A stretch of DNA of 64,000 bases from Pseudomonadota bacterium. GTDB taxonomy: Bacteria > Pseudomonadota > Gammaproteobacteria > Acidiferrobacterales > Acidiferrobacteraceae. Where the stretch lies: the NCBI GenBank assembly GCA_021795715.1, contig JAJYPD010000007.1, forward strand, positions 8,956-72,955, read 5' to 3'. This document shows, piece after piece, positions 34,752-52,121 of the stretch. Within the stretch, counting starts at the first letter, position 1, and every line of letters begins with the position of its first letter. The position numbers and the translations under genes were made by a program. The notes under the pieces were generated by a model. The model was not told the origin of the DNA. It saw only the letters and a list, made by a program, of their open reading frames with translations, and searched no databases.

Positions 34752-34828
34752 ATGGATACTTCATATATCCCTTATATCCCCTAATGGATAGTTGTGCGAC
34801 CGGAACCCTATCCCCTCAGGGGCATAGG
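34752..34828 (+). promoter_or_regulatory. Heptamer array (TATCCCY / TATCCAT) and imperfect palindrome in the dsrA upstream region; candidate operator cluster
   Basis: ATGGATA 34752-58, TATCCCT 34766-72, TATCCCC 34775-81 and ATGGATA 34784-90, the last two forming a 7-2-7 inverted repeat. Palindrome CCTATCCCC-TCA-GGGGCATAGG at 34807-28. Local GC drop. Confidence 0.45.
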
Positions 34829-34889
34829 CGTTTGCCGGGCACTTCCTTACTCTCGTCCCCATGCCCTAGGCCTTGCATAAGGAGTGGCG

Positions 34890-36158
34890 ATGAAAGAAGT
34901 GAAGAAGATGCCAGCAACGCCCATGCTCGATAAACTCGAGAGTGGCCCCTGGCCGAGTTTCGTATCAGGACTGAAGCGGCTCGCAAAGGATAACGACAAG
35001 TCCTACGCGCCGATGATGAAAGATTTGCTGGGCCAGTTGGAGTATTCCTACGAAACCCGCAAAGGCTACTGGAAAGGCGGCACCGTCGGCGTGCTCGGTT
35101 ACGGCGGCGGCATCATCCCGCGGTTTTCCGAAGTGGCAGACCAGTTCCCCGAATCGGCGGAATTTCACACACTCCGCATCATGCCTGCACCGGGCATGCA
35201 TTACACCACCGAAGTCCTGCGCAAATTCTGTGACATCTGGGAGGAATTCGGTTCCGGCCTGGTCGCCCTGCATGGACAAAGCGGCGACATTATGTTTCAG
35301 GGTTGCACGACCAAGAATGTCCAGCCCGCCTTCGACGCATTCAATGAAATGGGATTTGACCTGGGCGGCGCGGGTCCGGCCCTGCGCACTTCCATGTCGT
35401 GCGTCGGACATGCCCGCTGCGAGCATTCGTGCTATGACGAACAGCGCGCCCATCGGGTGATCATCAACGAGTTCCTCGATGAACTGCACCGTCCGGCCAT
35501 GCCGTACAAGTTCAAGTTCAAGTTTTCCGGCTGCCCCAACGATTGCACGAGTTCGATCCAGCGTTCCGATTTCGCGATCATCGGCACGTGGCGCGACAAC
35601 ATGAAGGTTGATCAGGCGGAAGTGAAGGCGTTCGTCGCCAAGAAAGGGCGCGCCTATGTCATCGACAACGTCATCACGCGCTGCCCGACACACAGCCTGC
35701 GCCTGAAGGATGACGACACGCTCGATGTCGACAACCGCAACTGCGTGCGCTGCATGCACTGCATCAACGTCATGACCAAGGCGTTGTCGCCTGGTGATGA
35801 CCGCGGCGCCACCATTCTCCTGGGCGGCAAGCGCACCCTGAAGGTGGGTGATCTCATGGGCACCGTGATGATGCCGTTTCTGCCGCTGAACACAGACGAG
35901 GACTTCGAAAACCTCGTTGATATCGCGCGGCGGACCATGGAGTTTTTCATGGATAACGCGCTTGAGCATGAACGGACCGGTGAAATGATCGAGCGTATCG
36001 GTTTGACGACCGTGCTCGAGGGCATCGGTCTGCCGCTTGACCCCAACATGATTGCGCATCCGCGCACCAATCCCTACGTCCGCATGGACGAATGGGACGA
36101 CGAGGTGGCCAAGCAGAAAGCCAGCAAGGCGGAACATAAGAACGGGGGGCAGTCATGA
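34890..36158 (+). CDS. dsrA: Reverse-type dissimilatory sulfite reductase alpha subunit
   Basis: ATPMLDKLESGPWPSFVSG N-terminus as in Allochromatium DsrA. Siroheme/FeS Cys cluster SCVGHARCEHSC and ferredoxin insert CVRCMHCINV. AAGGAG lies 5 nt before the ATG at 34890. Confidence 0.95.
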   Translation: MKEVKKMPATPMLDKLESGPWPSFVSGLKRLAKDNDKSYAPMMKDLLGQLEYSYETRKGYWKGGTVGVLGYGGGIIPRFSEVADQFPESAEFHTLRIMPAPGMHYTTEVLRKFCDIWEEFGSGLVALHGQSGDIMFQGCTTKNVQPAFDAFNEMGFDLGGAGPALRTSMSCVGHARCEHSCYDEQRAHRVIINEFLDELHRPAMPYKFKFKFSGCPNDCTSSIQRSDFAIIGTWRDNMKVDQAEVKAFVAKKGRAYVIDNVITRCPTHSLRLKDDDTLDVDNRNCVRCMHCINVMTKALSPGDDRGATILLGGKRTLKVGDLMGTVMMPFLPLNTDEDFENLVDIARRTMEFFMDNALEHERTGEMIERIGLTTVLEGIGLPLDPNMIAHPRTNPYVRMDEWDDEVAKQKASKAEHKNGGQS

Positions 36159-37222
36159 GCGTACGCAAACCGGTGGAATGCGGGGTTCCCGAAGCGGGCC
36201 CCTACATGCACCCAGTCATGAAGAAGAACTACGGGGCATGGAAGTGGCATGAGCGTCCGCGTCCCGGTGTTTTGCACCATGTTGCCAAGGGCGGTGACGA
36301 GCTCTGGACGGTGCGCGCCGGTACGCAGCGCCAGATGGACGTCGGCACGATCCGCACACTGTGCGACATCGCCGATCGTTATGCCGACGGGTATGTGCGC
36401 TTCACGACGCGCAACAACATCGAATTCATGGTGGCCAAGGAGTCGCAGGTGGCTCCGCTGATCAAGGCCCTGCAGGCGGCTGGGTTCCCTGTGGGCGGCA
36501 CCGGCAACTCGATTTCCATGATCTCGCATACGCAAGGCTGGCTGCATTGCGACATACCGGGCACTGACGCCTCTGGCGTGGTCAAGGCATTGATGGATGA
36601 GCTGCATGAGGAGTTCATCAACGAGCGCCTGCCCAACCGGTTGCGCATCTCCACCTCCTGTTGCGAAATCAACTGCGGTGGTCAGGCGGACATCGCCATC
36701 AACATCCAGCATACAAAGCCCCCGCGCATCAATCACGATCAGGTCGCAAACGTCTGCGAGCGCCCAAGCGTCATTGCCCGTTGCCCGGTTGCGGCCATCC
36801 GCCCGGCGATGGTGAACGGCAAGCCGTCTCTGGAAGTCGACGAACGCAAGTGTGTCTGCTGCGGCGCGTGCTTCCCGCCATGCCCGCCGATGATGATCAA
36901 CGATCCGGAACACTCCAAACTGGCGATCTGGGTGGGCGGCAAGCACTCCAACGCGCGCAGCAAGCCTTCGTTTCACAAGCTCGTCGTCGCCAATCTGCCG
37001 AACAACCCGCCGCGCTGGCCCGAGGTGGCGGCCGTCGTCAAGCGCATCATCCATGCGTACAAGGATGGTGCCCATGACTGGGAGCGTATGGGCGAATGGA
37101 TTGAGCGGATTGGTTGGCCGCGGTTCTTTGAACTCGTGGATCTGCCGTTTACCAAGTTCCATGTCGACAACTGGCGTGGCGGGCGGTTGAGCCTGAACGC
37201 GTCGACCTACGTTCGCTTCTAG
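36155..37222 (+). CDS. dsrB: Reverse-type dissimilatory sulfite reductase beta subunit
   Basis: Sulfite reductase fold, Cys clusters STSCCEINCGG and CVCCGACFPPCP. ATGA overlap with dsrA. Confidence 0.95.
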   Translation: MSVRKPVECGVPEAGPYMHPVMKKNYGAWKWHERPRPGVLHHVAKGGDELWTVRAGTQRQMDVGTIRTLCDIADRYADGYVRFTTRNNIEFMVAKESQVAPLIKALQAAGFPVGGTGNSISMISHTQGWLHCDIPGTDASGVVKALMDELHEEFINERLPNRLRISTSCCEINCGGQADIAINIQHTKPPRINHDQVANVCERPSVIARCPVAAIRPAMVNGKPSLEVDERKCVCCGACFPPCPPMMINDPEHSKLAIWVGGKHSNARSKPSFHKLVVANLPNNPPRWPEVAAVVKRIIHAYKDGAHDWERMGEWIERIGWPRFFELVDLPFTKFHVDNWRGGRLSLNASTYVRF

Positions 37223-37236
37223 TCTAGGAACAGGCC

Positions 37237-37596
37237 ATGAAAATCGGCATCTTGGTCAATGAAGGCCCTTACCAGCATCAGGCGGCAGACAGCGCGTACC
37301 AGTTCGCCGTCGCCGCCCTGAAGGCGGGCCATCAAGTGCAAAGGATCTTCTTCTATCACGATGGCGTGCACAATGCGTCGTCCCTGACCGAGCCGCCGCG
37401 GGATGACCGCCAGATCGTGCAACGCTGGTCGCAGCTTGCCGAGGAGCACAAGGTGGACCTGGTCGTGTGCATCGCCGCGGCGCTGCGCCGGGGTATCCGC
37501 GAGCAGAATCTCGCGCCGGGTTTTCGCATATCCGGCCTCGGACAGCTGGTCGAGTCGGGTATCCAGGCGGACCGCCTGGTGGTATTTGGCGATTAG
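37237..37596 (+). CDS. dsrE: Sulfurtransferase DsrE
   Basis: NEGPYQHQAADSAYQFA...FRISGLGQLVESGIQADRLVVFGD is near-colinear with A. vinosum DsrE. Confidence 0.9.
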   Translation: MKIGILVNEGPYQHQAADSAYQFAVAALKAGHQVQRIFFYHDGVHNASSLTEPPRDDRQIVQRWSQLAEEHKVDLVVCIAAALRRGIREQNLAPGFRISGLGQLVESGIQADRLVVFGD

Positions 37597-37605
37597 GGGG
37601 CCGCG

Positions 37606-37995
37606 ATGAGCATGGAAGAAGGAGAAACAACCGGGGTCGTCAAGCGGTTTCTGTTCGTCAACCGCAAGGCGCCCTACGGAACGATTTACGCACTGGAGGC
37701 GCTCGAGGTGGTTCTGATCACCGCGGCTTTCGATCAGGACGTAAGCCTCGCGTTCCTTGATGATGGCGTCTACCAGCTCCTGAAGACGGCGGATCCGACC
37801 GGCATCGGCATGAAAAATTTCGCGCCGACCTACCGGGCCCTCGACGATTACGACATCACGAAGCTGTTCGTGGAACGGGAATCTCTCGAGGAGCGCGGAT
37901 TACCAGAGGACAACTTCGTCGTACCGGTGACGGTCATCAGTCGGGCGGAAATGGCCGACATGATGGCGGCCCAGGACGTCGTACTGTCATTTTAA
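37606..37995 (+). CDS. dsrF: Sulfurtransferase DsrF
   Basis: DsrE/F/H fold (FLFVNRKAPYGTIYALEALEV), second gene of the EFH triplet. Confidence 0.9.
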   Translation: MSMEEGETTGVVKRFLFVNRKAPYGTIYALEALEVVLITAAFDQDVSLAFLDDGVYQLLKTADPTGIGMKNFAPTYRALDDYDITKLFVERESLEERGLPEDNFVVPVTVISRAEMADMMAAQDVVLSF

Positions 37996-38006
37996 AAGGG
38001 GACGAC

Positions 38007-38309
38007 ATGCTGCATACCGTCAACAAATCACCGCTACAAAGCCGGACGCTCGAGCAATGTCTTGCCCATGTCCGGCCGGGCGGGGCCGTATTACTGATTG
38101 AAGACGCCGTTTACGCGGCGACGGCACGCACGGCGGCCGGAGCGCAAATCGAGAAGAGCGTCGCGCAGTTTCCCGTGTACGTACTGGAACCCGACCTGAA
38201 GGCGCGCGGTATAGCCAGCAAGGACGTGGTCAAGGGCGTGACGGCAGTCGATTACGCCGGTTTCGTGAAGCTCGTGACAGAGCACGACGCCGTGCAAGCG
38301 TGGCTCTAG
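38007..38309 (+). CDS. dsrH: Sulfurtransferase DsrH
   Basis: MLHTVNKSP... 100 aa, the TusB/DsrH family position. Confidence 0.9.
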   Translation: MLHTVNKSPLQSRTLEQCLAHVRPGGAVLLIEDAVYAATARTAAGAQIEKSVAQFPVYVLEPDLKARGIASKDVVKGVTAVDYAGFVKLVTEHDAVQAWL

Positions 38310-38343
38310 GGTCGCAGACATTCAGGGTGAACAGGAGAGTACC

Positions 38344-38676
38344 ATGGCATACGAAGTGAACGGACAGAGCGTGACGGCAGACGAAGAGGGTTACATTGTC
38401 AATTTGGCCGAATGGAGCGAGCCGCTTGCCAACGTCATCGCGCAAAGTGAAGGCCTTGAGCTGACGTCCAACCACTGGGAAGTGATCAACTTCCTGCGTG
38501 AATACTACGGTGAATTCCAGATCGCGCCCGCGATCCGGGTGCTGACCAAGGCCATTGGCAAGAAGCTTGGTCCGGACAAGGGCAACAACAAGTATCTCTA
38601 CGACCTGTTCCCCTACGGTCCGGCCAAGCAGGCCTGCAAAATCGCCGGGCTGCCCAAGCCCACGGGGTGTATCTAA
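38344..38676 (+). CDS. dsrC: DsrC sulfur-carrier protein
   Basis: TusE/DsrC fold. C-terminal arm ...KQACKIAGLPKPTGCI has both conserved cysteines (penultimate Cys, and Cys 11 residues upstream). Confidence 0.95.
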   Translation: MAYEVNGQSVTADEEGYIVNLAEWSEPLANVIAQSEGLELTSNHWEVINFLREYYGEFQIAPAIRVLTKAIGKKLGPDKGNNKYLYDLFPYGPAKQACKIAGLPKPTGCI

Positions 38677-38705
38677 CAGCGGATCCCGGAGGCGGAGGCG
38701 GAATC

Positions 38706-39473
38706 ATGGCGACATGGACCATAGCGTATGCAGTGTTGTTGTACCTCGCGGCGATCGTTCTGGTCGGAGGGCTTTGCTACCGCATAGCACTCTACGCCAT
38801 GACAAAGGCCCCGCTCCGGATTCCCACCATGCCTGCGCCCCGGACACGTTCCGGCGTCGCCGTGCGCATGGCGGGCGAAGTGGGGCTCTTTACCAGCCTC
38901 TTTCGCGGCGACAAATGGGCTTGGATCTGGAGCTATCTCTTTCACGTCAGCCTTCTCCTCGTGCTGCTTCAGCACCTGCGCTATGTGTTCGTGAGCGTCC
39001 CCACGTGGGTGGTGTGGGAGTCGCCGTTTGGCAGTTACGCGGGGGCGGTGCTCGTCGTCTCCCTCATCGGACTGTTTGGGCGGCGGCTGATTAATGCGCG
39101 CGTGCGGTTCCTGTCTGGACCGTCGGACTATCTGATGCTGGTCTTGCTGTTTGCCATCGGTGTGACGGGCGCGATGATGCGCTTTGTCAGCCGCGTGAAC
39201 ATCGTCGGCTTCAAGGCGTTCATTCTTGGTCTCATGTACATGCATCTCCATCCGCTTCCGGATGACACGCTCATTCTGGTGCATGTCGGTCTCGTGGCCC
39301 TGCTCATGCTGGTGCTGCCCTTTAGCAAACTGCTGCATGCGCCAGGCGTCCTTTTCAGTCCGACCCGTAATCAGGTGGACAATGCGCGCCACGAGGCGCA
39401 GACACCGCGTGATCAGACCGCGCGCGGTGCCCGCGTTGGAGCAGAGCCCGTCGGTCAGGATGGTGCCCTATGA
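38706..39473 (+). CDS. dsrM: DsrM, NarI-like dihaem b membrane subunit
   Basis: 5 predicted TM helices with conserved His. Start at MATWTIAY; the track ORF begins 13 codons earlier, inside dsrC. Confidence 0.9.
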   Translation: MATWTIAYAVLLYLAAIVLVGGLCYRIALYAMTKAPLRIPTMPAPRTRSGVAVRMAGEVGLFTSLFRGDKWAWIWSYLFHVSLLLVLLQHLRYVFVSVPTWVVWESPFGSYAGAVLVVSLIGLFGRRLINARVRFLSGPSDYLMLVLLFAIGVTGAMMRFVSRVNIVGFKAFILGLMYMHLHPLPDDTLILVHVGLVALLMLVLPFSKLLHAPGVLFSPTRNQVDNARHEAQTPRDQTARGARVGAEPVGQDGAL

Positions 39474-40960
39474 GCGATATCACCGTACCAGCGCTTGGCG
39501 AATATGTGGAGACCCCCGAGCCGCGCGCCGGAGTGACAAAAGACATCCATACCTTCAAGGCAGGTCCCGAGCACCAGCGCGCGCTGGGATTCCCGGAAAG
39601 CCTGGTGGATGGCTGGCAGGAGAAGGCCATCCGCCGCCTGGGTGAACTGCTCGATACGCAGCGTGGACTGCGTGTCTACATGGATTCGTGCGTCAAGTGC
39701 GGCGCGTGCACGGACAAGTGCCATTATTTTCTGGGTACGGGCGAGGCCAACAATATGCCGGCGGCGCGCGCGGATCTGCTGCGCAAAGTGTACCGGCGGT
39801 ACTTCACGTGGCCCGGAAAATGGTTTCCCAAGCTTGTGGGTGCCACCGATCTGACGCCGGAAGTCCTCGATTCCTGGTACACGTACTTCCATCAATGCTC
39901 GCAGTGCCGGCGCTGCTCGGTGTTTTGTCCCTACGGGATTGACACCGCCGAGGTGTCCATGGCGGCGCGCGAGATCATGGACAGCATTGGCGTAGGCACA
40001 AAGTACACCAACGAGATTCTCGGCAAGGTTCACAAGGTCGGCAACAATCTCGGTCTTCCGGAGCCGGCACTGCGCAATACCCTCGAAGGTCTGGAGGAGG
40101 ACGTCAAGGACAGCACGGGCGTTGACGTGCGCTTCCCGGTGGACGTCGAGGGCGCCGAGGTGCTTCTCATCACGCCATCGGCCGACTTTTTTGCCGAACC
40201 GCACATCGACGGATTGATCGGTTATGCCAAGGTGTTCCACCAGGCGGGCATCAGCTGGACACTCAGCACGCACGCCTCGGAGGCGGCCAACTTCGCGATG
40301 TTCATCGGCAGCCATGAACAGATGCGCAAGGTGGCGATACGTATACGCGAAGCGGCGATTGCGCTCAAGGTCAAGCGGATTGTCGTGGGGGAATGCGGTC
40401 ACGCGTGGCGGGTCGCCTATTCCTTCTGGAACACCCTCATTGGGCCTTTTGACTTTCTGGATCCGCGCTACCCGCAGCCGCAGCATATCTGCGAGGTGAC
40501 GGAGGATCTCATCGGCCGGGGCGCCCTGAAGCTCGATCCGAGCGCGAACGACGAACGCGTCGTCACCTTCCACGATTCGTGCAACGTGGCACGCGCCACG
40601 CGCATGGGCGGCCGTCCGGGCGGCCAGTTCGAGGTTCCACGTTCCGTCATCCGGTCTGTCTGCAAGAATTTCGTGGAGATGAGCCCTGAGACAACGGGAG
40701 ACAGGACGTTTTGTTGCGGAGGCGGCGGCGGACTTTTGACCGACGACCTTCTGGAACTGCGCGTCAAAGGCGCGCTGCCGCGGATGCAGGCGCTGGATGC
40801 GGTCGTGAAGGAAAAGAAGGTCACGCATATGGCCGCGATCTGTGCCATATGCAAGAGCCAGTTTACGAAGGTACTGCCTTATTACGGCTTGGACCGCGAG
40901 ATGATCATCAGTGTGCATCAACTTGTGGGTGACGCCATCGTATTGGGCGCAAAAGAATAG
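39470..40960 (+). CDS. dsrK: DsrK, HdrD-like FeS catalytic subunit
   Basis: CVKCGACTDKC and CSQCRRCSVFCP ferredoxin motifs. CCG domain FCCGGGGG. Confidence 0.95.
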   Translation: MSDITVPALGEYVETPEPRAGVTKDIHTFKAGPEHQRALGFPESLVDGWQEKAIRRLGELLDTQRGLRVYMDSCVKCGACTDKCHYFLGTGEANNMPAARADLLRKVYRRYFTWPGKWFPKLVGATDLTPEVLDSWYTYFHQCSQCRRCSVFCPYGIDTAEVSMAAREIMDSIGVGTKYTNEILGKVHKVGNNLGLPEPALRNTLEGLEEDVKDSTGVDVRFPVDVEGAEVLLITPSADFFAEPHIDGLIGYAKVFHQAGISWTLSTHASEAANFAMFIGSHEQMRKVAIRIREAAIALKVKRIVVGECGHAWRVAYSFWNTLIGPFDFLDPRYPQPQHICEVTEDLIGRGALKLDPSANDERVVTFHDSCNVARATRMGGRPGGQFEVPRSVIRSVCKNFVEMSPETTGDRTFCCGGGGGLLTDDLLELRVKGALPRMQALDAVVKEKKVTHMAAICAICKSQFTKVLPYYGLDREMIISVHQLVGDAIVLGAKE

Positions 40961-40981
40961 CGGGCACAGAAGGGGATCAGA

Positions 40982-42892
40982 ATGACAGTAGGAAAACAGC
41001 AAGGGGAGACGACGGGTCGCACGTTCCGGCGGTACCAGGACGGCGAGGCGGAATTCGATTCGTTCCAGGAGCAGATCTTCAAGGCTGGCTGGTCGCACAA
41101 GTGCCCGGTGTACGTACAGCGCACGCCGGCCTGCCAGGGTCAGTGTCCGGCTGGCGAGGACATCCGGGGATGGCTTGACGTGGTACGCGGTCTCGACAAG
41201 CCGCCGACAGGCGTCACATGGCAGGAACATGCCTTCCGGCGTCTGACGCGCGCCAATCCGTTCCCGGGCGTCATGGGCTACGTGTGCCCGGCGCCATGCG
41301 AAGAAGGCTGCAATCGCCGCGCCGTGGAGGACTTCGTCGGCATCAATGCGGTCGAGCAGTTCGTGGGCGAAGCGGCCATCAAGGGTCAATACGGTTTCAA
41401 GAAACCCGAGAAGGAAACCGGCAAGCGGGTCGCGATCATCGGCGGGGGTGTGGCGGGGCTTGCGGCGGCCTACCAGTTGCGGTTGCGCGGCCACGGCTGC
41501 ACGATTTTCGAGTCGCGCGCAGAGCTGGGCGGCATGTTGCGCTACGGACTGCCCAATTACCGGACGCCGCCTGCGGTCGTCCAGGGGGAAATCCAGCGCA
41601 TTCTCGATATGGGTGTTGAAGTGCACACCAATACCCGGATCGGTGTGGATATCAAGATCGATGATCTGGACCGCGATTTCGATGCGGTCTTCTGGGCCAT
41701 CGGCACCCAAAACGGGCGCATACCGAATATTCCCGGCGCCAATGCGCCCAACTGTGTGGGCGGTATCGAATTTTTGCGCCAGTTCAACGACGGCAAGCTG
41801 CCTTCGGTTCCGGGGCGCATCGTGGTCATCGGCGGCGGCGACACCTCCATCGACGTGACGACGGTGGCGCGCAAGCTGGGCGGCTTTAGCGGCATCGATG
41901 GGGAAGGAAAGCCGTTGACCTACACGGCGGACATGGTCACATCGGCGGCGGCGCACAGCGGTCAGAAGGTCACTCTGACCTCGACGCTGCCGCTCGACCG
42001 GATGCGTGCATCGGCGCGTGAAGTGGCGGATGCGCGGTCGCTCGAAGTCGAGATCCTGGGCGGCCTCATGCCGCTGTCTGTGACCTGCAACGCAAAAGGG
42101 GTTGCGGTGGGCGTGCGTTTCGCGCCGTGCCATCACGGCGCCGACGGCCACCGTGTGCGCATCGAAGGTGACGAGATCGAGATTCCGGCGGACCTGGTCG
42201 TGTTCGCGATCGGCCAGTACGCCGATATGACGGGCCTTGAGAGTCTGGATAACGGACGCCAGGCGATCTCGGCGGGTCCGGCCTTGGAGGTTATCGGCCG
42301 TCCGCGCCATTTTGTCGGCGGGGACGTCATTGCCCCCCATCTTCTGGCGACGGCGATCGGTCATGCCGCGGCGGCGGCCGAGAGTATCGACGCGCTGCTG
42401 CGCGGCGAAACCCCCGCACGGCGGCCGCGGATCGACAAGCGCCATTACGACATCCGTGAAGGGCTGGTCGAGAATGCCAAACCCGTCAATGGCGTCGTGA
42501 CGAGCCGGACTTTTGTGCACAACTTTGAAAACCGCTCGACGCAGGAGGTCATCAAGGCGGACAGTCTGTTCCTGGGCCACTTCGAAACGACTCCACGGAT
42601 CCATCGGGAGGAGAGACGGCTGGCCGATCTGTTTGCCCGCGGCGGGGAACGCATCATGCCGCTGACCGAGGAACAGGCGGTCAAAGAGGCCAAGCGCTGC
42701 ATGAGCTGCGGTCTCTGTCTGGAGTGCGACAATTGCATGGTGTTTTGCCCGCAGGCGGCCGTCAGTAAGGTCCCGCGCGACCAGCATGCAATTGGCTACT
42801 ACGTGACGACCGACTATAAGCGCTGCATCGGATGCCACATCTGCCAGGACGTCTGTCCTGCGGGGTACATCCAGATGGGCTTGGGCGAATGA
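40982..42892 (+). CDS. dsrL: DsrL, NAD(P)H:acceptor oxidoreductase (GltD-like flavoprotein with C-terminal ferredoxin domain)
   Basis: N-terminal FeS Cys motifs, dinucleotide folds IIGGGVAGLAAAY and VVIGGGDTSIDV. C-terminal CMSCGLCLECDNC and CIGCHICQDVCP. Confidence 0.9.
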   Translation: MTVGKQQGETTGRTFRRYQDGEAEFDSFQEQIFKAGWSHKCPVYVQRTPACQGQCPAGEDIRGWLDVVRGLDKPPTGVTWQEHAFRRLTRANPFPGVMGYVCPAPCEEGCNRRAVEDFVGINAVEQFVGEAAIKGQYGFKKPEKETGKRVAIIGGGVAGLAAAYQLRLRGHGCTIFESRAELGGMLRYGLPNYRTPPAVVQGEIQRILDMGVEVHTNTRIGVDIKIDDLDRDFDAVFWAIGTQNGRIPNIPGANAPNCVGGIEFLRQFNDGKLPSVPGRIVVIGGGDTSIDVTTVARKLGGFSGIDGEGKPLTYTADMVTSAAAHSGQKVTLTSTLPLDRMRASAREVADARSLEVEILGGLMPLSVTCNAKGVAVGVRFAPCHHGADGHRVRIEGDEIEIPADLVVFAIGQYADMTGLESLDNGRQAISAGPALEVIGRPRHFVGGDVIAPHLLATAIGHAAAAAESIDALLRGETPARRPRIDKRHYDIREGLVENAKPVNGVVTSRTFVHNFENRSTQEVIKADSLFLGHFETTPRIHREERRLADLFARGGERIMPLTEEQAVKEAKRCMSCGLCLECDNCMVFCPQAAVSKVPRDQHAIGYYVTTDYKRCIGCHICQDVCPAGYIQMGLGE

Positions 42893-42893
42893 G

Positions 42894-43373
42894 ATGAAGA
42901 CCCGGGCGCTCGTCATCGCGGGATTGTCGGTTCTGATCTTCTTTGGTGCGATCTGGGCGGACCATCGCGGCACCGTACCGGTGCCGCTCGTTCCGACCGC
43001 ACAGGGTCACTGTGTCCTGCCGACGGCGCTCATGCGCCGCGAGCACATGATGCTGCTGCGCCAGGTGCGCGAGCAGATTGTGCGGGACGACAAGAATGAT
43101 CGCACCGACCGTCTGACCAACTGCATTGCCTGCCATGTGCAGACCAATAGCGCGGGGGCACCGATCCCAATCAATCAGCGCGGACAGTTTTGTGCCGCCT
43201 GCCACACGTATGTCGGGGTGCATCTCGACTGCTTCGCCTGCCACGCGACAGTGCCGCAAAAGGCGGTTTCGATCGCAAATCTCATGGGCACCAAGGGAGA
43301 ACAGGCGGCGTATTCGATTCCGCGGGTGATCCTTCAGAATGCGCCCGCATCGCTTTCAAGGGGGCATTCATGA
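42894..43373 (+). CDS. dsrJ: DsrJ, periplasmic trihaem cytochrome c
   Basis: Signal anchor plus three CxxCH sites (CIACH, CAACH, CFACH). Confidence 0.9.
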   Translation: MKTRALVIAGLSVLIFFGAIWADHRGTVPVPLVPTAQGHCVLPTALMRREHMMLLRQVREQIVRDDKNDRTDRLTNCIACHVQTNSAGAPIPINQRGQFCAACHTYVGVHLDCFACHATVPQKAVSIANLMGTKGEQAAYSIPRVILQNAPASLSRGHS

Positions 43374-44134
43374 CCGGTGATCGGACAGATCTCGTGAGTG
43401 ACGCCGCGCCCGAAGAGGGACACGACCCCTCACGGCGCCGGCTGTTTGCGCTGGCAGGTGGCGCGGTCGCGGCGGTGCTGACGCCGGGTGTGACGCTGTT
43501 TGCGCGCACGCTGACGGTCGGATCGGGCAAAACGCCGGTGCGCTACGGTCTGCTTATCGACAGCACCCGGTGCACGCAGGGCTGTGATGCCTGCGTCACG
43601 GCCTGCCAGGATTACAACGGTCTGTCAAAGAAGATCACGCCCGATACGGCGCAGTGGATCCGCAAGGTAACGGTCACGGATCCGCAGACGGGCCTGACCC
43701 GCAGCTTTCCTGTCATGTGCCAGCATTGTGCGCAGGCGACGTGCGTAGATGTGTGCCCAACCGGCGCATCGTATCGACGGCCGGATGGGATCGTGCTTGT
43801 CGACAAGCACCGCTGTATCGGCTGCCGTTACTGTCTCATGGCCTGCCCGTACAAGGCGCGTTCGTTCGTCGGACGGGTGGTGAAAGATCAAAAGCCATGG
43901 GCGCCACGCGGAAAAGGCACTGCAGAAGCATGTACGATGTGCGTCGAACGGGTCATGGACGGAAAGGCGCCGGCCTGCGTGACCGCCTGCGCCGAGAGGG
44001 GCAAGAAGGCGATGGTGTTTGGCAATCTGCATGATCCGAAAAGCGAGATTGCGCAAAAACTTGCGCAGTTTCCGACAACCACCATACGCGCCGATCTGGG
44101 CCTTGAGCCCGGCGTGCATTACCGCGGCATTTAG
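43370..44134 (+). CDS. dsrO: DsrO, periplasmic FeS ferredoxin-like subunit
   Basis: Tat motif SRRRLFALAGG. Cys clusters CTQGCDACVTAC, CQHCAQATCVDVCP, CIGCRYCLMACP and CTMCVERV. ATGA overlap with dsrJ; the track ORF from 43190 is an upstream extension. Confidence 0.9.
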   Translation: MTGDRTDLVSDAAPEEGHDPSRRRLFALAGGAVAAVLTPGVTLFARTLTVGSGKTPVRYGLLIDSTRCTQGCDACVTACQDYNGLSKKITPDTAQWIRKVTVTDPQTGLTRSFPVMCQHCAQATCVDVCPTGASYRRPDGIVLVDKHRCIGCRYCLMACPYKARSFVGRVVKDQKPWAPRGKGTAEACTMCVERVMDGKAPACVTACAERGKKAMVFGNLHDPKSEIAQKLAQFPTTTIRADLGLEPGVHYRGI

Positions 44135-44154
44135 ACGTCTTTCTGGGAGACCCT

Positions 44155-45396
44155 ATGGCAACCATGCACTACAGAGAGATCCCGGGCCGAAGCTTCCTCT
44201 ACTGGGCGGGACTGGCGGTGTGCGCCCTGCTGACCGTGGCCGGCGTGGGGGCCGGGCTTTATATGCGGGCCGAGGGGCACCATGTCACCGGGATGAATCA
44301 GCAGATCGTGTGGGGCATCGAGCATGTGTTCGCTGTCTTCCTGATCGTCGCGGCCTCGGGGGCCCTGAATGTGGCCTCCATCGCCTCGGTTTTCGGACGC
44401 ACGATCTACAAACCCCTGTCGCGGCTGTCGGGATTGCTGGCCATCGCGCTGCTAATCGGCGGCCTGTGGGATCTGGTCTTGGATCTTGGGCGTCCAGGAC
44501 ATGTGCTGGACGCCATCATCTACGGCAACTTCCGGTCGATCTTTGCATGGAACATGTACCTGTACGCCGGCTTTTTGCTGATTACGGGTTTTTACCTTTG
44601 GTTCATGATGGAGCGGCGCCTCAACCGATACAGCCACGCGATGGGCGTCACTGCATTTCTGTGGCGGTTGACGCTGACCACCGGCACGGGTTCGATCTTT
44701 GGTTTCCTGGTGTCGCGCAGCGCCTACGATACGGCGCTTCTGGCACCGATGTTCATCATCATGTCGTTTGCCTACGGGCTGGCGACGTTCCTGCTTATCC
44801 TGATCGGCGGTTTTCGCGCCCTGGCCCGGCCGGTCGGGGAGCGCATTCGGGGCCGCCTGAAGATTCTGTTGACCGTGTTCGTGGCAGCGGTGCTGTATTT
44901 TGCGGTTGTCTATAACCTGACCAATCTCTACATGCCCGGCCAGCGCGCGTTCGAGGGATTCGTGCTGCTTCATGGTGGTGTTTACACGATGCTTTTCTGG
45001 GTCGGGCAGATCCTGATCGGCGGCGTGTTCCCGCTCGTATTGCTGCTTGGCAAGAAAGGGGCGAGCGCCAGAACTTTGGTCATGGCAAGCGTGGCCGTGC
45101 TGATTGGCGGTCTCGCACAAGTCTACATCATCATCGTAGGGGCTCAGGCCTATCCGCAGCAGCTGTTTCCGGGAATGATCGTGCACAGTTCCTTCTACGA
45201 CGGGGTTGTCAACCCGTACATCCCGGGATGGCCCGAGACGACGCTCGCTGTGAGCGGTGTGGGATTAGTCGGGCTGATCGTCTTGCTGGCGGTGCGGGTG
45301 CTGCCCTTCCTGCCGCTCAGTCTCGCCGATGAGGTCACGGACGTGCACGGACATGATCAGACGGTGACCGCTGCCGGTGCTGCCGCAACGCCATGA
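44155..45396 (+). CDS. dsrP: DsrP, NrfD/PsrC-like integral membrane subunit
   Basis: About 10 TM helices, polysulfide-reductase NrfD-like. Position after dsrO. Confidence 0.9.
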   Translation: MATMHYREIPGRSFLYWAGLAVCALLTVAGVGAGLYMRAEGHHVTGMNQQIVWGIEHVFAVFLIVAASGALNVASIASVFGRTIYKPLSRLSGLLAIALLIGGLWDLVLDLGRPGHVLDAIIYGNFRSIFAWNMYLYAGFLLITGFYLWFMMERRLNRYSHAMGVTAFLWRLTLTTGTGSIFGFLVSRSAYDTALLAPMFIIMSFAYGLATFLLILIGGFRALARPVGERIRGRLKILLTVFVAAVLYFAVVYNLTNLYMPGQRAFEGFVLLHGGVYTMLFWVGQILIGGVFPLVLLLGKKGASARTLVMASVAVLIGGLAQVYIIIVGAQAYPQQLFPGMIVHSSFYDGVVNPYIPGWPETTLAVSGVGLVGLIVLLAVRVLPFLPLSLADEVTDVHGHDQTVTAAGAAATP

Positions 45397-46844
45397 TGCG
45401 CCGCGTCTACATATCGGCCGCTCATAAGTCGTCTGGAAAGACGACTGTCTCGATCGGTCTGTGTGCGGCGCTAAAGGAGCGCGGCCTGCGGGTGCAGCCC
45501 TTCAAGAAGGGGCCCGACTTCATCGATCCGCTCTGGCTTACCCAGGCGGCCGGGCGTGCCTGTCACAATCTCGACTTCCACACCATGAGCATCGCCGAGA
45601 TCCGCGATTGCTTCGCCATGGCCTCGCAGGATGCTGATATCGCCGTCATCGAAGGCAACAAGGGGCTGTTCGACGGCGTGGCACTCGACGGCAGCAACAG
45701 CAACGCCGCGCTTGCGCGGCATTTAGCGGCCCCGGTGGTGCTCGTCATCAACGCCCAGGGCATCAATCGGGGTATCGCGCCGCTTGTCATCGGCTATCGG
45801 CATTTCGATCCGGATCTGCCCGTGGCCGGTATCATCTTGAACCGTGTCGGAGGCGCGCGCCACGAGGCCAAACTGCGGGCCGTCCTGAAGGCTTTTACCG
45901 ATGTGCCGGTTCTCGGCGCCCTCTGGGATTCGGCGTCCGTGTCGATTACGGAACGTCATCTGGGCTTGATTCCAAGCGGCGAGCACGACGAAGCGGCATC
46001 TGCGGTGGAACGACTTTCGCGGGTCATCCAGGATCATGTCGATGTGGATGCCATTGCCCACATCGAGCCCGGTGAACGGCCTGTTTCGGTGACAGCGCGC
46101 CCGCGCAGGCGCGCGGTGGACTTGCGGATCGGTGTCCCGCGCGACGCCGCATTCAGCTTCTATTATCCGGGTGACCTGGAGGCGCTGGCGGCAGGCGGCG
46201 CCGAACTCGTATTTTTCGATACACTAAAGGACAAGCGCCTGCCCGAGGTCGACGGCCTCTTCATCGGTGGCGGCTTTCCTGAGACACAGGCGGGGGCGCT
46301 TGCCGCAAACAGCGGCATGCGCCGCGCCATCCGCGCGGCTATAGAGGAGGGTCTGCCCGTCTACGCCGAGTGCGGCGGCCTCATGTATCTCTGCCGGACT
46401 CTTTCGTGGCGCGGGGCGACCTACCCGATGGTCGGCGCGCTGGCTGCGGATGCGCAGATGGAAGAAAAGCCCATCGGTCATGGCTATGTGAATTTGCAGC
46501 CAACCGCCGCGCATCCGTGGTGGCCGGGGGGACCGGTGACGGGACGTGCGGTCGTGCCGGCCCATGAATTTCACTATTCGCATCTTGTCGATGTGGCTGC
46601 GGACACGGTGTACGCCTACAAGGTCACACGGGGGCACGGGATAGACGGCCAGAACGATGGCATCGTCTACAAGAACGTCCTGGCCGGCTATGCCCATCTG
46701 CGCGATGTACAGGCGTCGCCTTGGACGGGCCGTTTTCTGGATTTCGTGCGCAACCGCCGTCCAGCGGCAGGGATCTTGGCGGACGCATCCTGTTGTTGCT
46801 GCGCGCCCTCGATGGCCGGAGCGCCTTGTGACGCGCGCTCATGA
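45393..46844 (+). CDS. dsrN: DsrN, CobB/CbiA-like amidotransferase (siroheme amidase)
   Basis: P-loop AAHKSSGKTTVSIGL and GATase-like YAECGGLMYL with active Cys. ATGA overlap with dsrP. Unusual C-terminal tail containing CCCC. Confidence 0.85.
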   Translation: MMRRVYISAAHKSSGKTTVSIGLCAALKERGLRVQPFKKGPDFIDPLWLTQAAGRACHNLDFHTMSIAEIRDCFAMASQDADIAVIEGNKGLFDGVALDGSNSNAALARHLAAPVVLVINAQGINRGIAPLVIGYRHFDPDLPVAGIILNRVGGARHEAKLRAVLKAFTDVPVLGALWDSASVSITERHLGLIPSGEHDEAASAVERLSRVIQDHVDVDAIAHIEPGERPVSVTARPRRRAVDLRIGVPRDAAFSFYYPGDLEALAAGGAELVFFDTLKDKRLPEVDGLFIGGGFPETQAGALAANSGMRRAIRAAIEEGLPVYAECGGLMYLCRTLSWRGATYPMVGALAADAQMEEKPIGHGYVNLQPTAAHPWWPGGPVTGRAVVPAHEFHYSHLVDVAADTVYAYKVTRGHGIDGQNDGIVYKNVLAGYAHLRDVQASPWTGRFLDFVRNRRPAAGILADASCCCCAPSMAGAPCDARS

Positions 46845-48258
46845 CGTCGCGGTCATTGGTTGCGGGGCCGGCGGATACAAGGCGGCGATAACCGCCGCAC
46901 AGCATGGCGCCCGTGTGGTGGTCATCGAGCGCGAGCAGGTCGGCGGTGCCTGCCTGAACCGGGCGTGTGTGCCAAAGAAGGCGCTTGCGCACATCGCCAG
47001 TCTGATTCTCCAAACCCAAACGCTTACCGGTCACGGCCTGACAGGCCGGGTGAGCGGCGATCTGGCTGCCGCCATCGCCTTCAAAAATCAGGTTGTCGAC
47101 GAATTGCGGCGCGGGCTGCCTCTGCGATTGAAGCCGCTGGCCGTGGAGACCATCATCGGCGAAGCGCGCATGGCCGGTCCCAATCACATCCTCGTCGAAA
47201 CGGCGGAGGGGAAGCGGCGCATCGAGGCGCGATCCATCATCATCGCGACCGGCGCCGCGCCACGCGCGCTCGCCGGTTGCGCCGTGGATCACGACCGCAT
47301 CGTCAACGCCGACAGCTTCATTCCGACCCTGGCCGCACCGCTTGGTGACGTTCTGTGTGTTGGCGGGGGCGCGCTGGGTGTCGAGGCGGCCTTCTTCCTG
47401 CATCAGTTCGGAGGCCGTGTCACGATCGTTGAGGAAAAGGGGCGCCTTCTTGACCTGCCGGCGATTCCCGAGCGGGCTTCGAATCTGCTTGAACGCAGCC
47501 TGACAAGCCTTGGCGTCACCGTCTGCACGCAACAGACGGTTCGTTCGGCCCGGGCCACACATGAGGGCGTTTGTGTCGAATTCGCCGATGGGCGTGTGTC
47601 CAGCTTTGCGCGCGTTCTGGTCGCGGTAGGGCGCCAACCGCGTCCCGATGATCTGGGGCTCGATGATCTTGGCATTGAACGGGATGCCAACGGATTCATC
47701 GTCACGAACGAGTTCCTGCAAACGAATATTCCGGGTCTTTTCGCCGTAGGTGACGTCAAGGGCGGACCCATGACCGCGGCGGCGGCTCTTCACGATGGCC
47801 GCGTGGCCGGAGAAAATGCCACACAGGGTGCCGTGCGCCAGAGAAATTATCATCAGGTGCCGCTTGTCGTGGATTCCGTTCTGCCCATCGCCGCCATGGG
47901 CCTGTCGGAGGAACTGGCGGAATCCGCTGGATTCACTCCAGACACGGTCTACATCCCTTTGCGCGCATCAGTCAAGGCGCGCGCCTACAATGACGCCACC
48001 GGGTTCATCGAGATCGTCCATGACCAGGAAACTGGCCAGATGCTGGGTGGCTGTATTGTGGGTGCAGGCGCCGATGAATTGATCCACATCATCGCGCTGG
48101 CCTGCCGCTCGAAACGAGGCCTTTGGTCCCTCACGGATCTTGATTATGGCCACCCGTCATGGAGCGAGGATGTCGGGACCGCGCTGGAACCCTATATCCG
48201 GACGTTGACACAGACGGCCGACACCGTGTTTAGGCCCGGCATTTATGCGGCAGATTAA
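46828..48258 (+). CDS. Class-I pyridine nucleotide-disulfide oxidoreductase (dihydrolipoamide dehydrogenase-like)
   Basis: VAVIGCGAGGYKAA FAD fold, redox disulfide GGACLNRACVPKK (CxxxxC), second Rossmann VGGGALGVEAAFFLHQFGGRVTIVEE (acidic end, NADH-like), and C-terminal His-Glu dyad YGHPSWSE. GTG at 46828 is preceded by GGAG and overlaps dsrN by 17 nt. Confidence 0.8.
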   Translation: MTRAHDVAVIGCGAGGYKAAITAAQHGARVVVIEREQVGGACLNRACVPKKALAHIASLILQTQTLTGHGLTGRVSGDLAAAIAFKNQVVDELRRGLPLRLKPLAVETIIGEARMAGPNHILVETAEGKRRIEARSIIIATGAAPRALAGCAVDHDRIVNADSFIPTLAAPLGDVLCVGGGALGVEAAFFLHQFGGRVTIVEEKGRLLDLPAIPERASNLLERSLTSLGVTVCTQQTVRSARATHEGVCVEFADGRVSSFARVLVAVGRQPRPDDLGLDDLGIERDANGFIVTNEFLQTNIPGLFAVGDVKGGPMTAAAALHDGRVAGENATQGAVRQRNYHQVPLVVDSVLPIAAMGLSEELAESAGFTPDTVYIPLRASVKARAYNDATGFIEIVHDQETGQMLGGCIVGAGADELIHIIALACRSKRGLWSLTDLDYGHPSWSEDVGTALEPYIRTLTQTADTVFRPGIYAAD

Positions 48259-48291
48259 AGGGCAGGAGAGGGCGCTCATCCCGCAGGCGAT

Positions 48292-48311
48292 GTTCGTATA
48301 TAGTATCGAAC
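48292..48311 (+). promoter_or_regulatory. AT-cored palindrome GTTCG-TATATAGTAT-CGAAC between the disulfide reductase and sensor kinase genes
   Basis: 5-bp arms flank a -10-like TATATAGTAT core in an otherwise GC-rich 88-nt gap. Confidence 0.3.
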
Positions 48312-48346
48312 AGAGTGTTTCTGCGGCCAGCCGGCCCGAGGCCCCT

Positions 48347-52065: not shown

Positions 52066-52121
52066 AGGCGCCCCACTTCAGAATGAGTTCATACTGAACA
52101 CCCAACGGCACAACGAAAACA

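What the first reader, a model, noticed from the sequence alone, without database searches (positions are those of the whole stretch)
34752..34828. Dense array of TATCC(C/A)Y heptamers, including a 7-2-7 inverted pair, upstream of dsrA
In the 165-nt tatD-dsrA spacer the GC content drops and one heptamer family recurs four times within 39 bp. The copies are ATGGATA (34752-58, TATCCAT on the other strand), TATCCCT (34766-72), TATCCCC (34775-81) and ATGGATA (34784-90). TATATCCCT and TATATCCCC are tandem 9-bp repeats. TATCCCC-TA-ATGGATA (34775-90) is a 7-2-7 inverted repeat, the geometry of high-affinity NarL sites (consensus heptamer TACYYMT). Sixteen bp further on is the imperfect palindrome CCTATCCCC-TCA-GGGGCATAGG (34807-28), 62-83 nt before the dsrA ATG. 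A NarL-family regulator is encoded at the other end of the operon.
Basis: seen in the sequence. Interest (0 to 1): 0.65.

Follow-up and report, generated by a model that had tools for sequence, protein, structure and literature searches.

The report
Regulator binding sites before dsrA
The repeated heptamers upstream of the sulfur-oxidation gene dsrA are real, conserved docking sites of the NarL type, almost certainly for the response regulator encoded at the end of the same operon, which also appears to control the gene that makes the enzyme's sirohaem cofactor.

Summary
Its core is far beyond chance and conserved. The conserved module is two 7-2-7 inverted heptamer pairs. Box 1 is 34775-34790 (TATCCCC-TA-ATGGATA). 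They sit exactly 34 nt apart in every relative. They are followed in fixed register by weak -35-like and -10-like hexamers (TAGGCG-17 nt-TACTCT).

A third site, TATCCCT-GT-GGGGATA (52122-52137), lies upstream of the divergent sirohaem synthase gene cysG, next to the regulator gene. With a PWM built only from other genomes, these three are the window's top hits (18.7-21.7 bits; next best 12.2).

The same sites occur upstream of dsrA in all dsr loci that carry the linked kinase and regulator, including cultured Inmirania thermothiophila. They are absent from 12 of 12 loci without the pair.

The regulator is 44% identical to E. coli NarL and keeps its base-contacting lysines. The kinase lacks NarX's periplasmic nitrate sensor and has a Cys-bearing GAF domain, so this is NarL-like in mechanism but is not NarXL.

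The two upstream heptamers (34752-58, 34766-72) are lineage-specific.

Binding, transcription start and signal are untested.

The parts
34752..34758 (-). Accessory heptamer TATCCAT (ATGGATA on + strand); lineage-specific
   Evidence: Present. Only a weak counterpart (TTGGATG) in the 92%-relative L001 and none in L003/L005/L006/L036.
34764..34781 (+). 9-bp tandem duplication TATATCCCT/TATATCCCC. Its first unit creates the accessory heptamer TATCCCT (34766-72); its second unit carries the left half of Box 1.
   Evidence: the repeat finder family D3. The duplication is absent from L001 and all other relatives.
34775..34790 (.). Box 1: 7-2-7 inverted heptamer pair TATCCCC-TA-ATGGATA. Distal operator, centre about -77.5 relative to the inferred transcription start.
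   Evidence: 18.9 bits with the leave-window-out PWM. Orthologous sites: L001 TATCTCCTAATGGATA, L005 TACCCCCAAAGAGGTA, L006 TATCCCCTTGGAGATA, L036 TACCCCTTAGGGGATA, L059 TATCTCCTCGGGGATA, L066 TATCCCGAACGGGATA. Column identity 0.83 against 0.62 in the flanks.
34791..34808 (.). 18-nt spacer of fixed length but free sequence between Box 1 and Box 2
   Evidence: The start-to-start distance is 34 nt in the window, L001, L003, L005, L006, L036, L059 and L066. Column identity 0.62.
34809..34824 (.). Proximal operator abutting the -35-like hexamer, centre about -43.5.
   Evidence: 18.7 bits. L036 TACCCCTTGAGGGGCA and L066 TACCCCTTCGGGGGCA are one or two mismatches from the crystallised NarL site TACCCCTAAAGGGGTA. 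Column identity 0.91.
34825..34830 (+). -35-like hexamer TAGGCG (inferred)
   Evidence: Column identity 0.94. Pattern T-N-G-N-C-G kept in the 6 aligned genomes; Inmirania has TGGTCT in the same register. Too weak for the consensus scan, as expected for an activator-dependent promoter.
34848..34853 (+). -10-like hexamer TACTCT (inferred), 17 nt after TAGGCG
   Evidence: The TA..CT pattern is invariant in 6 genomes, identity 0.94, with gap-free spacing. Inmirania has TATCGT in the same register. No experimental transcription start.
34879..34892 (+). Shine-Dalgarno AAGGAG and dsrA start codon ATG (34890)
   Evidence: CATAAGGAGTGGCRATG is conserved in all relatives.
34890..46844 (+). Controlled operon dsrABEFHCMKLJOPN (dsrA 34890-36158, dsrB 36155-37222 ... 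dsrN 45393-46844)
   Evidence: ORFs; Pfam for dsrN; the same gene order annotated in L065, L066 and L068.
48245..49975 (+). Sensor histidine kinase (probable start ATG 48347): two TM helices with a ~12-15-residue loop, HAMP, Cys-bearing GAF, HisKA_3, HATPase
   Evidence: Pfam. Sequence. Conserved C-x-C...C in the GAF domain of 8 + 5 orthologues. Only the transmitter resembles NarX. No PDB match to NarX/NarQ sensor domains.
49972..50616 (+). NarL-family response regulator (REC + GerE HTH), the proposed binder of the sites
   Evidence: Pfam. NarL model 217 bits against a cut-off of 250. 44% identical to E. coli NarL with recognition helix VKLHVK against VKVHVK. The helix is invariant in all dsr-linked orthologues.
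50653..52065 (-). cysG, sirohaem synthase; second predicted target
   Evidence: NCBIfam CysG equivalog 632 bits against a cut-off of 400. Same position next to the regulator in L004, L005, L006, L036 and L065.
52122..52137 (.). cysG operator: 7-2-7 pair TATCCCT-GT-GGGGATA, 57-72 nt upstream of the cysG ATG, centre about -45 relative to a candidate -10 (CAGTAT, + strand 52091-52096)
   Evidence: Best hit in the window, 21.7 bits. Conserved in L006 TATCCCCGTTGGGATA, L036 TATCCCAGTAGGGGTA and L005 TACCTCGGTGGGGGTA. It is the only strongly conserved block of that intergenic region.

Best explanation
The heptamers are operator sites of a small, conserved regulon controlled by the two-component system at the 3' end of the dsr operon (kinase 48245-49975, NarL-family regulator 49972-50616). 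Shown by sequence and comparison: two 7-2-7 inverted heptamer pairs (Box 1 34775-90, Box 2 34809-24) in a fixed 34-nt register upstream of dsrA. A third 7-2-7 pair (52122-37) lies upstream of the sirohaem synthase gene cysG. All three are conserved, occur only where the kinase/regulator pair is present, and match the sites that E. coli NarL binds as a dimer. Inferred mechanism: the kinase has no periplasmic domain, so it senses a membrane or cytoplasmic cue through its HAMP and Cys-bearing GAF module and phosphorylates the regulator. The freed GerE domains dimerise on each 7-2-7 site. The dimer on Box 2 is centred near -43.5 and abuts a poor -35 (TAGGCG-17 nt-TACTCT). It recruits RNA polymerase in the way NarL does at napF and yeaR, and the dimer on Box 1 (about -77.5) assists. 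The same regulator switches on cysG from a site near -45, so that the sirohaem cofactor is made together with the sirohaem enzyme DsrAB. The two extra upstream heptamers in this genome (34752-58, 34766-72) are recent, non-conserved additions that may add low-affinity binding.
For: Chance is excluded. The three sites are the top three PWM hits in 64 kb using a PWM trained on other genomes only (21.7, 18.9 and 18.7 bits against 12.2 for the next hit; 0 of 100 simulations reached 18.68). In 586 kb of window plus loci, scores of at least 13/14 occurred only at dsrA and cysG upstream sites, apart from one other position. Footprint: Box 1 0.83, Box 2 0.91, -35-like 0.94 and -10-like 0.94 column identity, against 0.59-0.62 for the spacers, with no gaps. 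The cysG site is the only strongly conserved block of its intergenic region in 4 genomes. Co-occurrence: 4 of 4 independent kinase/regulator-positive loci (L007, L059, L066 Inmirania thermothiophila, L068) have a site of at least 17 bits within 500 nt upstream of dsrA. None of 12 negative loci does (maximum 7.5 bits), Fisher p = 5.5e-4. A second dsrAB copy without the pair in the same MAG has no site (L067). The linkage survives rearrangement: a compact dsrA-dsrB-kinase-regulator locus has one 20.6-bit site upstream of dsrA. Regulator: 44% identical to E. coli NarL, K188 and K192 kept, V189 to L, and the recognition helix is invariant across all dsr-linked orthologues. NarL prefers 7-2-7 sites and binds them as a dimer. 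The crystallised site is TACCCCTAAAGGGGTA, and the activating sites at napF and yeaR lie at -40 to -49 and -38 to -47 (PMC4549865; PMC2718512). In L068 the tool finds TTGACC-18-TAGACT just downstream of the second box.
Against: No binding, transcription-start or expression data exist for any of these organisms. The -35/-10 assignment in the window rests on conservation only and fails the consensus scan. In L007 and L068 the boxes sit at about -55 and -87 relative to a better promoter, so the geometry is not uniform. In L005 the left half of Box 2 is degenerate. The heptamers also fit the consensus of genuine NarL/NarP, so another family member encoded elsewhere in the genome could bind them. 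Only a 64-kb window and flanks of at most 22 kb were searched, so the size of the regulon is unknown. The sensed signal is pure inference.
Confidence: 0.75

Rival explanations
1. The sites are real NarL-type operators but act negatively. The regulator binds Box 2 over the -35 region (and the cysG site likewise) and represses dsr and cysG until the signal is removed.
For: Box 2 directly abuts or overlaps the inferred -35 hexamer. E. coli NarL represses frdA through a 7-2-7 site near the transcription start (PMC4549865).
Against: The inferred -35 and -10 hexamers are poor (3 of 6 each; no hit), which is typical of activator-dependent promoters. In L007 and L068 the boxes lie upstream of the promoter (about -55 and -87), which are activator positions. 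NarL activates napF and yeaR from sites centred at about -44.
Confidence: 0.15
2. The sites are bound by a different NarL/NarP-type regulator encoded elsewhere in the genome (for example a true nitrate/nitrite-responsive NarL). In that case dsr and cysG would be tied to nitrate availability, and the adjacent regulator would have other targets.
For: The heptamers fit the E. coli NarL sites (TACCCCT-type). Thousands of gammaproteobacterial regulators 58-64% identical to this one are labelled NarL. E. coli nirB, whose operon ends in cysG (own knowledge), has a NarL/NarP 7-2-7 site.
Against: Strict co-occurrence of the sites with the dsr-linked pair (4/4 against 0/12). The compact dsrAB-kinase-regulator locus has a single strong site. 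At least part of the 58-64% plateau is itself dsr-linked (L063, L066, L068). The recognition helix is identical wherever the motif is found. No nar or nir genes lie next to the pair in the window.
Confidence: 0.08
3. The repeats are not protein-binding sites. They would instead be a chance product of a low-GC spacer, a terminator or hairpin of the upstream gene tatD, or a structured 5' leader RNA.
For: Box 2 is palindromic and could fold. A further inverted repeat GGGCATAGG/CCCATGCCC exists at 34820-28 / 34858-66.
Against: No terminator-like site and no Rfam match. The gene upstream of dsrA differs between genomes while the boxes stay with dsrA. Substitutions follow the heptamer consensus rather than base pairing: in L036 TACCCCT-TG-AGGGGCA improves the NarL match. 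The same motif recurs upstream of cysG on the other strand. Chance is excluded.
Confidence: 0.02

Closest known systems
E. coli NarL/NarP 7-2-7 operator sites (heptamer TACYYMT; e.g. napF, yeaR, nirB, fdnG, frdA)
   Same: Two inverted heptamers separated by 2 bp. The sequences are nearly identical to the crystallised high-affinity NarL site TACCCCT-AA-AGGGGTA (L036 TACCCCT-TA-GGGGATA; window TATCCCC-TA-ATGGATA). The inferred position near -44 matches napF and yeaR. Extra single heptamers nearby, as at many NarL promoters. The regulator is of the same family, with the same base-contacting lysines.
   Different: Position 3 of the heptamer is mostly T here rather than C. The targets are sulfur-oxidation genes (dsr) and cysG, not nitrate or nitrite respiration genes. 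Two 7-2-7 sites sit in a fixed 34-nt register, which is not a described NarL arrangement as far as I know.
NarX-NarL / NarQ-NarP nitrate-nitrite two-component systems
   Same: HisKA_3-type kinase and REC-GerE regulator encoded side by side. The kinase transmitter is 35% identical to NarX and the regulator 44% identical to NarL.
   Different: The kinase has no periplasmic P-box domain (only about 12-15 residues between its two TM helices) and no similarity to NarX residues 1-340. It carries a GAF domain with an invariant C-x-C...C. The regulator scores below the NarL equivalog cut-off. The pair is embedded in dsr operons.
E. coli nirBDC-cysG operon under NarL/NarP control (own knowledge for the operon structure; nirB 7-2-7 site in PMC2718512)
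   Same: A NarL-type regulator couples expression of a sirohaem-dependent reductase of the sulfite/nitrite reductase family with the sirohaem synthase gene.
   Different: In E. coli, cysG is co-transcribed with nirB. Here cysG is a separate, divergent gene with its own operator, and the enzyme is reverse DsrAB.
Known regulators of bacterial sulfur oxidation: ArsR-type SoxR/sHdrR of Hyphomicrobium denitrificans (PMC10451225, PMC12423496); the sigma-54 two-component system next to sox genes in Thioalkalivibrio (PMC6382920); the dsr regulation study in Allochromatium vinosum (Grimm et al. 2010, cited in PMC3397948)
   Same: Transcriptional control of sulfur-oxidation genes, and possible use of cysteines for sensing.
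   Different: Different protein families, DNA motifs and target pathways (sox, sHdr). None is a NarL-family system attached to dsr. In 7 full-text searches I found no description of this pair or motif.

Membership tests
NarL/NarP-type 7-2-7 operator | Two heptamers in inverted orientation separated by exactly 2 bp | tested here: met
   34775-90, 34809-24 and 52122-37. The same geometry holds at all orthologous sites.
NarL/NarP-type 7-2-7 operator | Heptamers match the NarL consensus (TACYYMT from own knowledge; crystallised site TACCCCTAAAGGGGTA from PMC4549865) | tested here: met
   The conserved window heptamers match 5-6 of 7, with T for C at position 3 (TATCCCT 6/7; TATCCCC 5/7). Relatives have perfect heptamers (L036 TACCCCT; L005 AGAGGTA = TACCTCT) at the same positions.
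NarL/NarP-type 7-2-7 operator | Bound by a dimer of the phosphorylated regulator's GerE domains | not testable with these tools
   Needs EMSA, footprinting or DAP-seq.
NarL/NarP-type 7-2-7 operator | The cognate regulator keeps NarL's base-contacting residues of helix alpha-9 (K188, V189, K192; residue roles from own knowledge of Maris et al. 2002) | tested here: met
   VKLHVK against VKVHVK: both lysines identical, V189 to L. Invariant in all dsr-linked orthologues.
NarX-NarL nitrate/nitrite system (orthology) | Regulator reaches the curated NarL equivalog score | tested here: not met
   NF007935 217.2 bits against a cut-off of 250.
NarX-NarL nitrate/nitrite system (orthology) | Kinase has the periplasmic nitrate-binding (P-box) sensor domain between TM1 and TM2 | tested here: not met
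   Only about 12-15 residues separate the two hydrophobic segments. NarX/NarQ models and BLASTP align only the transmitter. No PDB hit to NarX/NarQ sensor structures.
NarX-NarL nitrate/nitrite system (orthology) | Genomic association with nitrate/nitrite respiration genes | tested here: not met
   The pair follows dsrN in all loci examined. Downstream window genes are cysG, generic MFS transporters and a Cu-ATPase, not narK or nirB.
Two-component system (HisKA_3 kinase + NarL/FixJ-family regulator) | Kinase with DHp (HisKA_3) and HATPase_c; regulator with receiver and GerE HTH; adjacent genes | tested here: met
   Pfam hits. The genes overlap by 4 nt (48245-49975 / 49972-50616).

The most novel reading that the evidence does not exclude
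A dedicated two-component switch is the master regulator of reverse-Dsr sulfur oxidation in a wide range of gammaproteobacterial sulfur oxidizers (the Acidiferrobacter clade, Inmirania and other Ectothiorhodospiraceae-like lineages). Its kinase has no external sensor and reads the cell's internal sulfur or redox state, for example sulfane sulfur, sulfite or an Fe-S/metal centre, through the invariant C-x-C...C of its GAF domain. Its NarL-like regulator then co-induces the dsr operon and sirohaem synthesis from 7-2-7 operators. This would be the first defined sensor-to-promoter pathway for the dsr genes of sulfur oxidizers.
Probability: 0.35. Interest if true: 0.7.

Novelty: new member of a known kind. 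Interest (0 to 1): 0.58.

Why it matters
How sulfur-oxidizing bacteria switch on the reverse dissimilatory sulfite reductase pathway is poorly understood. I found no defined operator and no dedicated regulator for dsr in chemolithotrophic sulfur oxidizers in the searchable literature. This work gives a concrete, testable cis-element with a consensus near TAYCCCY-NN-RGGGRTA, two copies 34 nt apart. It also gives a named candidate regulator and kinase, and a predicted second target (cysG) that makes physiological sense because it couples cofactor supply to enzyme synthesis. Finally, it identifies a cultured organism (Inmirania thermothiophila) in which the prediction can be tested. It also shows how a NarL-type DNA-binding module has been reused with a different sensor for sulfur rather than nitrate metabolism. 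That is a warning against annotating such regulators as 'nitrate/nitrite response regulator NarL'.

Tried and rejected
1. **Sigma-54 promoter reading of GGCATAGGCGTTTGC.** The GG-to-GC spacing is one base too long, and the TTGC part is not conserved (L003, L005, L006, L036 differ).

2. **Intrinsic terminator of tatD or an RNA element.** There is no terminator-like site and no Rfam hit at E <= 1. The upstream gene differs between genomes.

3. **Change of regulator specificity as the cause of T versus C at heptamer position 3.** L005 and L036 use TAC, the window and L006 use TAT. This is rejected because the recognition helix is identical in all orthologues.

4. **Genuine NarXL next to a nitrate/nitrite assimilation cluster.** I suspected the MFS gene at 53511-54695, the HPP gene at 54774-55721 and the 824-aa ORF at 57153-59627. 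NCBIfam shows generic MFS transporters and a copper P-type ATPase, not NarK or NirB.

5. **Reading Box 2 as 7-3-8 or 7-4-7.** The 7-2-7 frame fits best once L036 and L066 are included.

6. **Consensus sigma-70 scan of the window spacer and of Inmirania.** It found nothing, so the promoter hexamers are inferred from conservation only.

7. **Literature searches for a described dsr-linked two-component system.** Nothing relevant.

8. **Technical and redundant items.** L035 proved identical to L006, and L065 is the same species as L005. They were not counted as independent.

Full report
**1. The observation**

- ATGGATA at 34752-58.
- TATCCCT at 34766-72.
- TATCCCC at 34775-81.
- ATGGATA at 34784-90.
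- The tandem 9-mers TATATCCCT/TATATCCCC at 34764-81.
- The 7-2-7 arrangement TATCCCC-TA-ATGGATA at 34775-90.
- The imperfect palindrome CCTATCCCC-TCA-GGGGCATAGG at 34807-28.

The palindrome lies 62-83 nt before the dsrA ATG at 34890. That ATG is preceded by AAGGAG at 34879-84. A fifth TATCCCC (34809-15) lies inside the palindrome. The repeat finder returns the same relations and adds that TATCCCCTAATGG and TATCCCCTCAGGG are direct repeats 34 nt apart. GC content drops to 0.50-0.54 in the spacer.

- tatD at 33945-34724.
- dsrA and dsrB, followed by dsrEFHCMKLJOPN.
- A dihydrolipoyl-dehydrogenase-like flavoprotein.
- A HisKA_3 histidine kinase at 48245-49975.
- A REC-GerE response regulator at 49972-50616.

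**2. More than chance**

TATCCMY occurs 21 times in the window against 12.3 +/- 3.3 expected. Five copies lie within 64 bp here.

That scan also showed a close pair at 52122-52137. It is a perfect 7-2-7 palindrome, TATCCCT-GT-GGGGATA. It lies 57-72 nt upstream of the divergent sirohaem synthase gene cysG (50653-52065, minus strand; CysG equivalog 632 bits). cysG sits immediately after the regulator gene.

Scoring all 16-mers against TATCCCY-NN-RGGGATA, only 34775, 34809 and 52122 reach at least 12 of 14. I then built a PWM only from orthologous sites in other genomes. The window's three best hits are these three positions (21.7, 18.9 and 18.7 bits). The fourth hit scores 12.2, and none of 100 first-order Markov simulations of 64 kb reached 18.68 bits.

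**3. Conservation**

DsrL was used as the anchor so that 10-kb flanks reach both intergenic regions. It retrieved Acidiferrobacter-like genomes with 72-92% DsrL identity. These share the order dsrN-(flavoprotein)-kinase-regulator-cysG(-).

Upstream of dsrA, six independent genomes show the following (window, L001, L003, L005, L006, L036):
- Box 1 as a 7-2-7 pair: TATCTCC-TA-ATGGATA, TACCCCC-AA-AGAGGTA, TATCCCC-TT-GGAGATA and TACCCCT-TA-GGGGATA. It is cut by the contig end in L003.
- An 18-nt spacer of free sequence.
- Box 2: TATCCCC-TC-AGGGGCA and the variant TACCCCT-TG-AGGGGCA. The left half is degenerate in L005.

After Box 2, with no gaps, come TAGGCG, 17 nt, TA..CT, and the conserved CATAAGGAGTGGCRATG.

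Column identity in alignment A1:

| Block | Column identity |
|---|---|
| Box 1 | 0.83 |
| Box 2 | 0.91 |
| -35-like hexamer | 0.94 |
| -10-like hexamer | 0.94 |
| SD region | 0.92 |
| The two spacers | 0.59-0.62 |

Upstream of cysG, the block C-TAYCCCN-AC-NGRGRTA-TG is the only strongly conserved stretch in four genomes.

The two upstream heptamers of the window (34752-58, 34766-72) have only weak counterparts in the 92% relative L001 and none elsewhere. One of them was created by the 9-bp tandem duplication, which no relative shares.

**4. Link to the regulator**

Homologues of the regulator fall into two groups. One is an Acidiferrobacter clade at 70% identity or more. The other is a large plateau at 58-64%, much of it labelled 'NarL' by automatic annotation.

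Gene contexts are telling:
- **72% homologue (L059).** It sits in a compact dsrA-dsrB-kinase-regulator locus. The only strong PWM hit of that locus (TATCTCCTCGGGGATA, 20.6 bits) is upstream of dsrA, with a weaker box 34 nt later.
- **70% homologue (L061).** It is an orphan in the same neighbourhood. dsrAB and the kinase have been lost, and no strong site remains.
- **Plateau members.** They close the dsr operons of an Ectothiorhodospiraceae MAG (L063), of cultured Inmirania thermothiophila (L066) and of another gammaproteobacterial MAG (L068).

In Inmirania the two best hits in 22 kb are TATCCCGAACGGGATA and TACCCCTTCGGGGGCA. They are 34 nt apart upstream of dsrA. TGGTCT-17 nt-TATCGT follows in the same register as the window's TAGGCG-17-TACTCT.

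L068 and L007 each have two strong sites upstream of dsrA. L068 has a further site upstream of the kinase gene.

A second dsrAB-dsrL copy in the same MAG as L068 (L067) lacks the pair and has no site. Alphaproteobacterial dsr loci also lack the pair and have no site.

In total, 4 of 4 independent pair-positive loci have a strong site, against 0 of 12 pair-negative loci (maximum 7.5 bits). Fisher p = 5.5e-4.

**5. What the proteins are**

The regulator is 44% identical to E. coli NarL over its whole length. Its recognition helix reads V-K-L-H-V-K against NarL's V187-K188-V189-H190-V191-K192. The helix DGTVKLHVKAILRKL is invariant in every dsr-linked orthologue. That agrees with a single motif being used throughout. 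It also excludes a specificity change as the reason for T or C at heptamer position 3.

The regulator scores 217 bits on the NarL equivalog model, below the cut-off of 250.

The kinase matches NarX and NarQ only in its transmitter (35% identity, residues 279-525). It has two hydrophobic segments separated by about 12-15 residues, so it has no periplasmic sensor. After these come a HAMP domain and a GAF domain with an invariant C-x-C...C. It finds no NarX or NarQ sensor structure in the PDB.

The system therefore works like NarL at the DNA end, but it is not the nitrate sensor NarXL.

**6. Comparison with what is known**

NarL prefers inverted heptamers separated by 2 bp and binds them as a dimer. 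The crystallised high-affinity site is TACCCCTAAAGGGGTA. The activating 7-2-7 sites at napF and yeaR lie at -40 to -49 and -38 to -47. NarL can also use single heptamers (PMC4549865; PMC2718512).

The sites here are one to four substitutions away from that site.

If TACTCT (34848-53) is the -10 hexamer, Box 2 is centred near -43.5 and Box 1 near -77.5. The cysG site is centred near -45, relative to CAGTAT (+ strand 52091-96). These positions point to activation.

In L068 the consensus scan finds TTGACC-18-TAGACT eleven nt after the second box. That places the boxes at about -55 and -87, which are again activator positions.

None of the transcription starts is mapped.

Co-control of a sirohaem enzyme and cysG recalls the E. 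coli nirBDC-cysG operon (own knowledge for the operon structure).

**7. Rivals and novelty**

- **Repression instead of activation.** It remains possible (0.15).
- **Binding by another NarL paralogue.** The co-occurrence data make it unlikely (0.08).
- **Terminator, RNA element or chance.** These are effectively excluded.

Full-text searches found no description of a dsr-linked NarL-type system or of this motif. Known sulfur-oxidation regulators belong to other families.

I therefore classify the finding as a new member of a known kind. It is a NarL-family regulator with classical 7-2-7 operators. It is attached to a new sensor and to a new regulon (dsr plus cysG), and it is conserved across several gammaproteobacterial lineages.

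It is well supported by comparative evidence. Binding, promoter mapping and signal identification all still need experiments.

Noticed in passing
window 46657-48258: A dihydrolipoyl-dehydrogenase-like flavoprotein (TIGR01350 347 bits, below the cut-off of 409) is wedged between dsrN and the kinase. It is present in L002-L004, L006 and L036 but absent in L005/L065, Inmirania (L066) and L068. Its role in the dsr operon is unknown.
   Followed up: partly
window 50266-50281 (inside the regulator gene): TATCTGCTAAAGGACA is a weak 7-2-7-like sequence (9.4 bits). It recurs at the same place in the orthologous genes (L003 15586, L004 10671, L006 19292, L059 10295, L066 18137, L068 16512). It is probably a coding constraint, but it could be an internal low-affinity site.
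   Followed up: partly
L068 14459-14474: TATCCCGTCGGGGAGA (13.8 bits) lies in the dsrN-kinase intergenic gap of this MAG, which suggests autoregulation of the kinase/regulator genes there. The window has no such gap or site.
   Followed up: no
L063 3200-3830 (also L064): The dsrO-dsrP gap of an Ectothiorhodospiraceae MAG holds a ~290-bp tandem duplication full of GGACTRA microsatellite. Each copy carries AATACCCTCTGGGGCATAAAGG, which resembles Box 2.
   Followed up: no
L059/L060 and L061/L062: Two Acidiferrobacter-type genomes share a neighbourhood (Proton_antipo_M, CRCB, DUF190, CRCB, ERCC4). In one, a compact dsrA-dsrB-kinase-regulator unit is inserted. In the other, only the regulator and a 73-codon kinase remnant remain.
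   Followed up: partly
L066 2413-3323 and L068 755-1696: A Cas6-family gene (PF09559) and a DUF6967 gene lie divergently upstream of dsrA in both Inmirania thermothiophila and an unrelated gammaproteobacterial MAG. This is an odd conserved neighbour for a dsr operon.
   Followed up: no
window 34820-34828 / 34858-34866, and 34871-34882: An inverted repeat GGGCATAGG / CCCATGCCC joins the right edge of Box 2 with the region after the -10-like hexamer. It is kept in L001, L003 and L036 but not in L005 or L006. The short palindrome CCTTGCATAAGG overlaps the Shine-Dalgarno sequence. Either could affect the leader RNA.
   Followed up: no
L067 7485-11953: The MAG GCA_054681815.1 carries a second, stand-alone dsrA-dsrB-dsrL set (63% DsrA identity) besides its full dsr operon (L068). 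The second set has neither the two-component genes nor the operator motif.
   Followed up: partly
window 57153-59627: A copper-exporting P-type ATPase with two N-terminal CopZ-like domains, followed by a glutaredoxin-like ORF (59704-60114). Unrelated to the finding.
   Followed up: no
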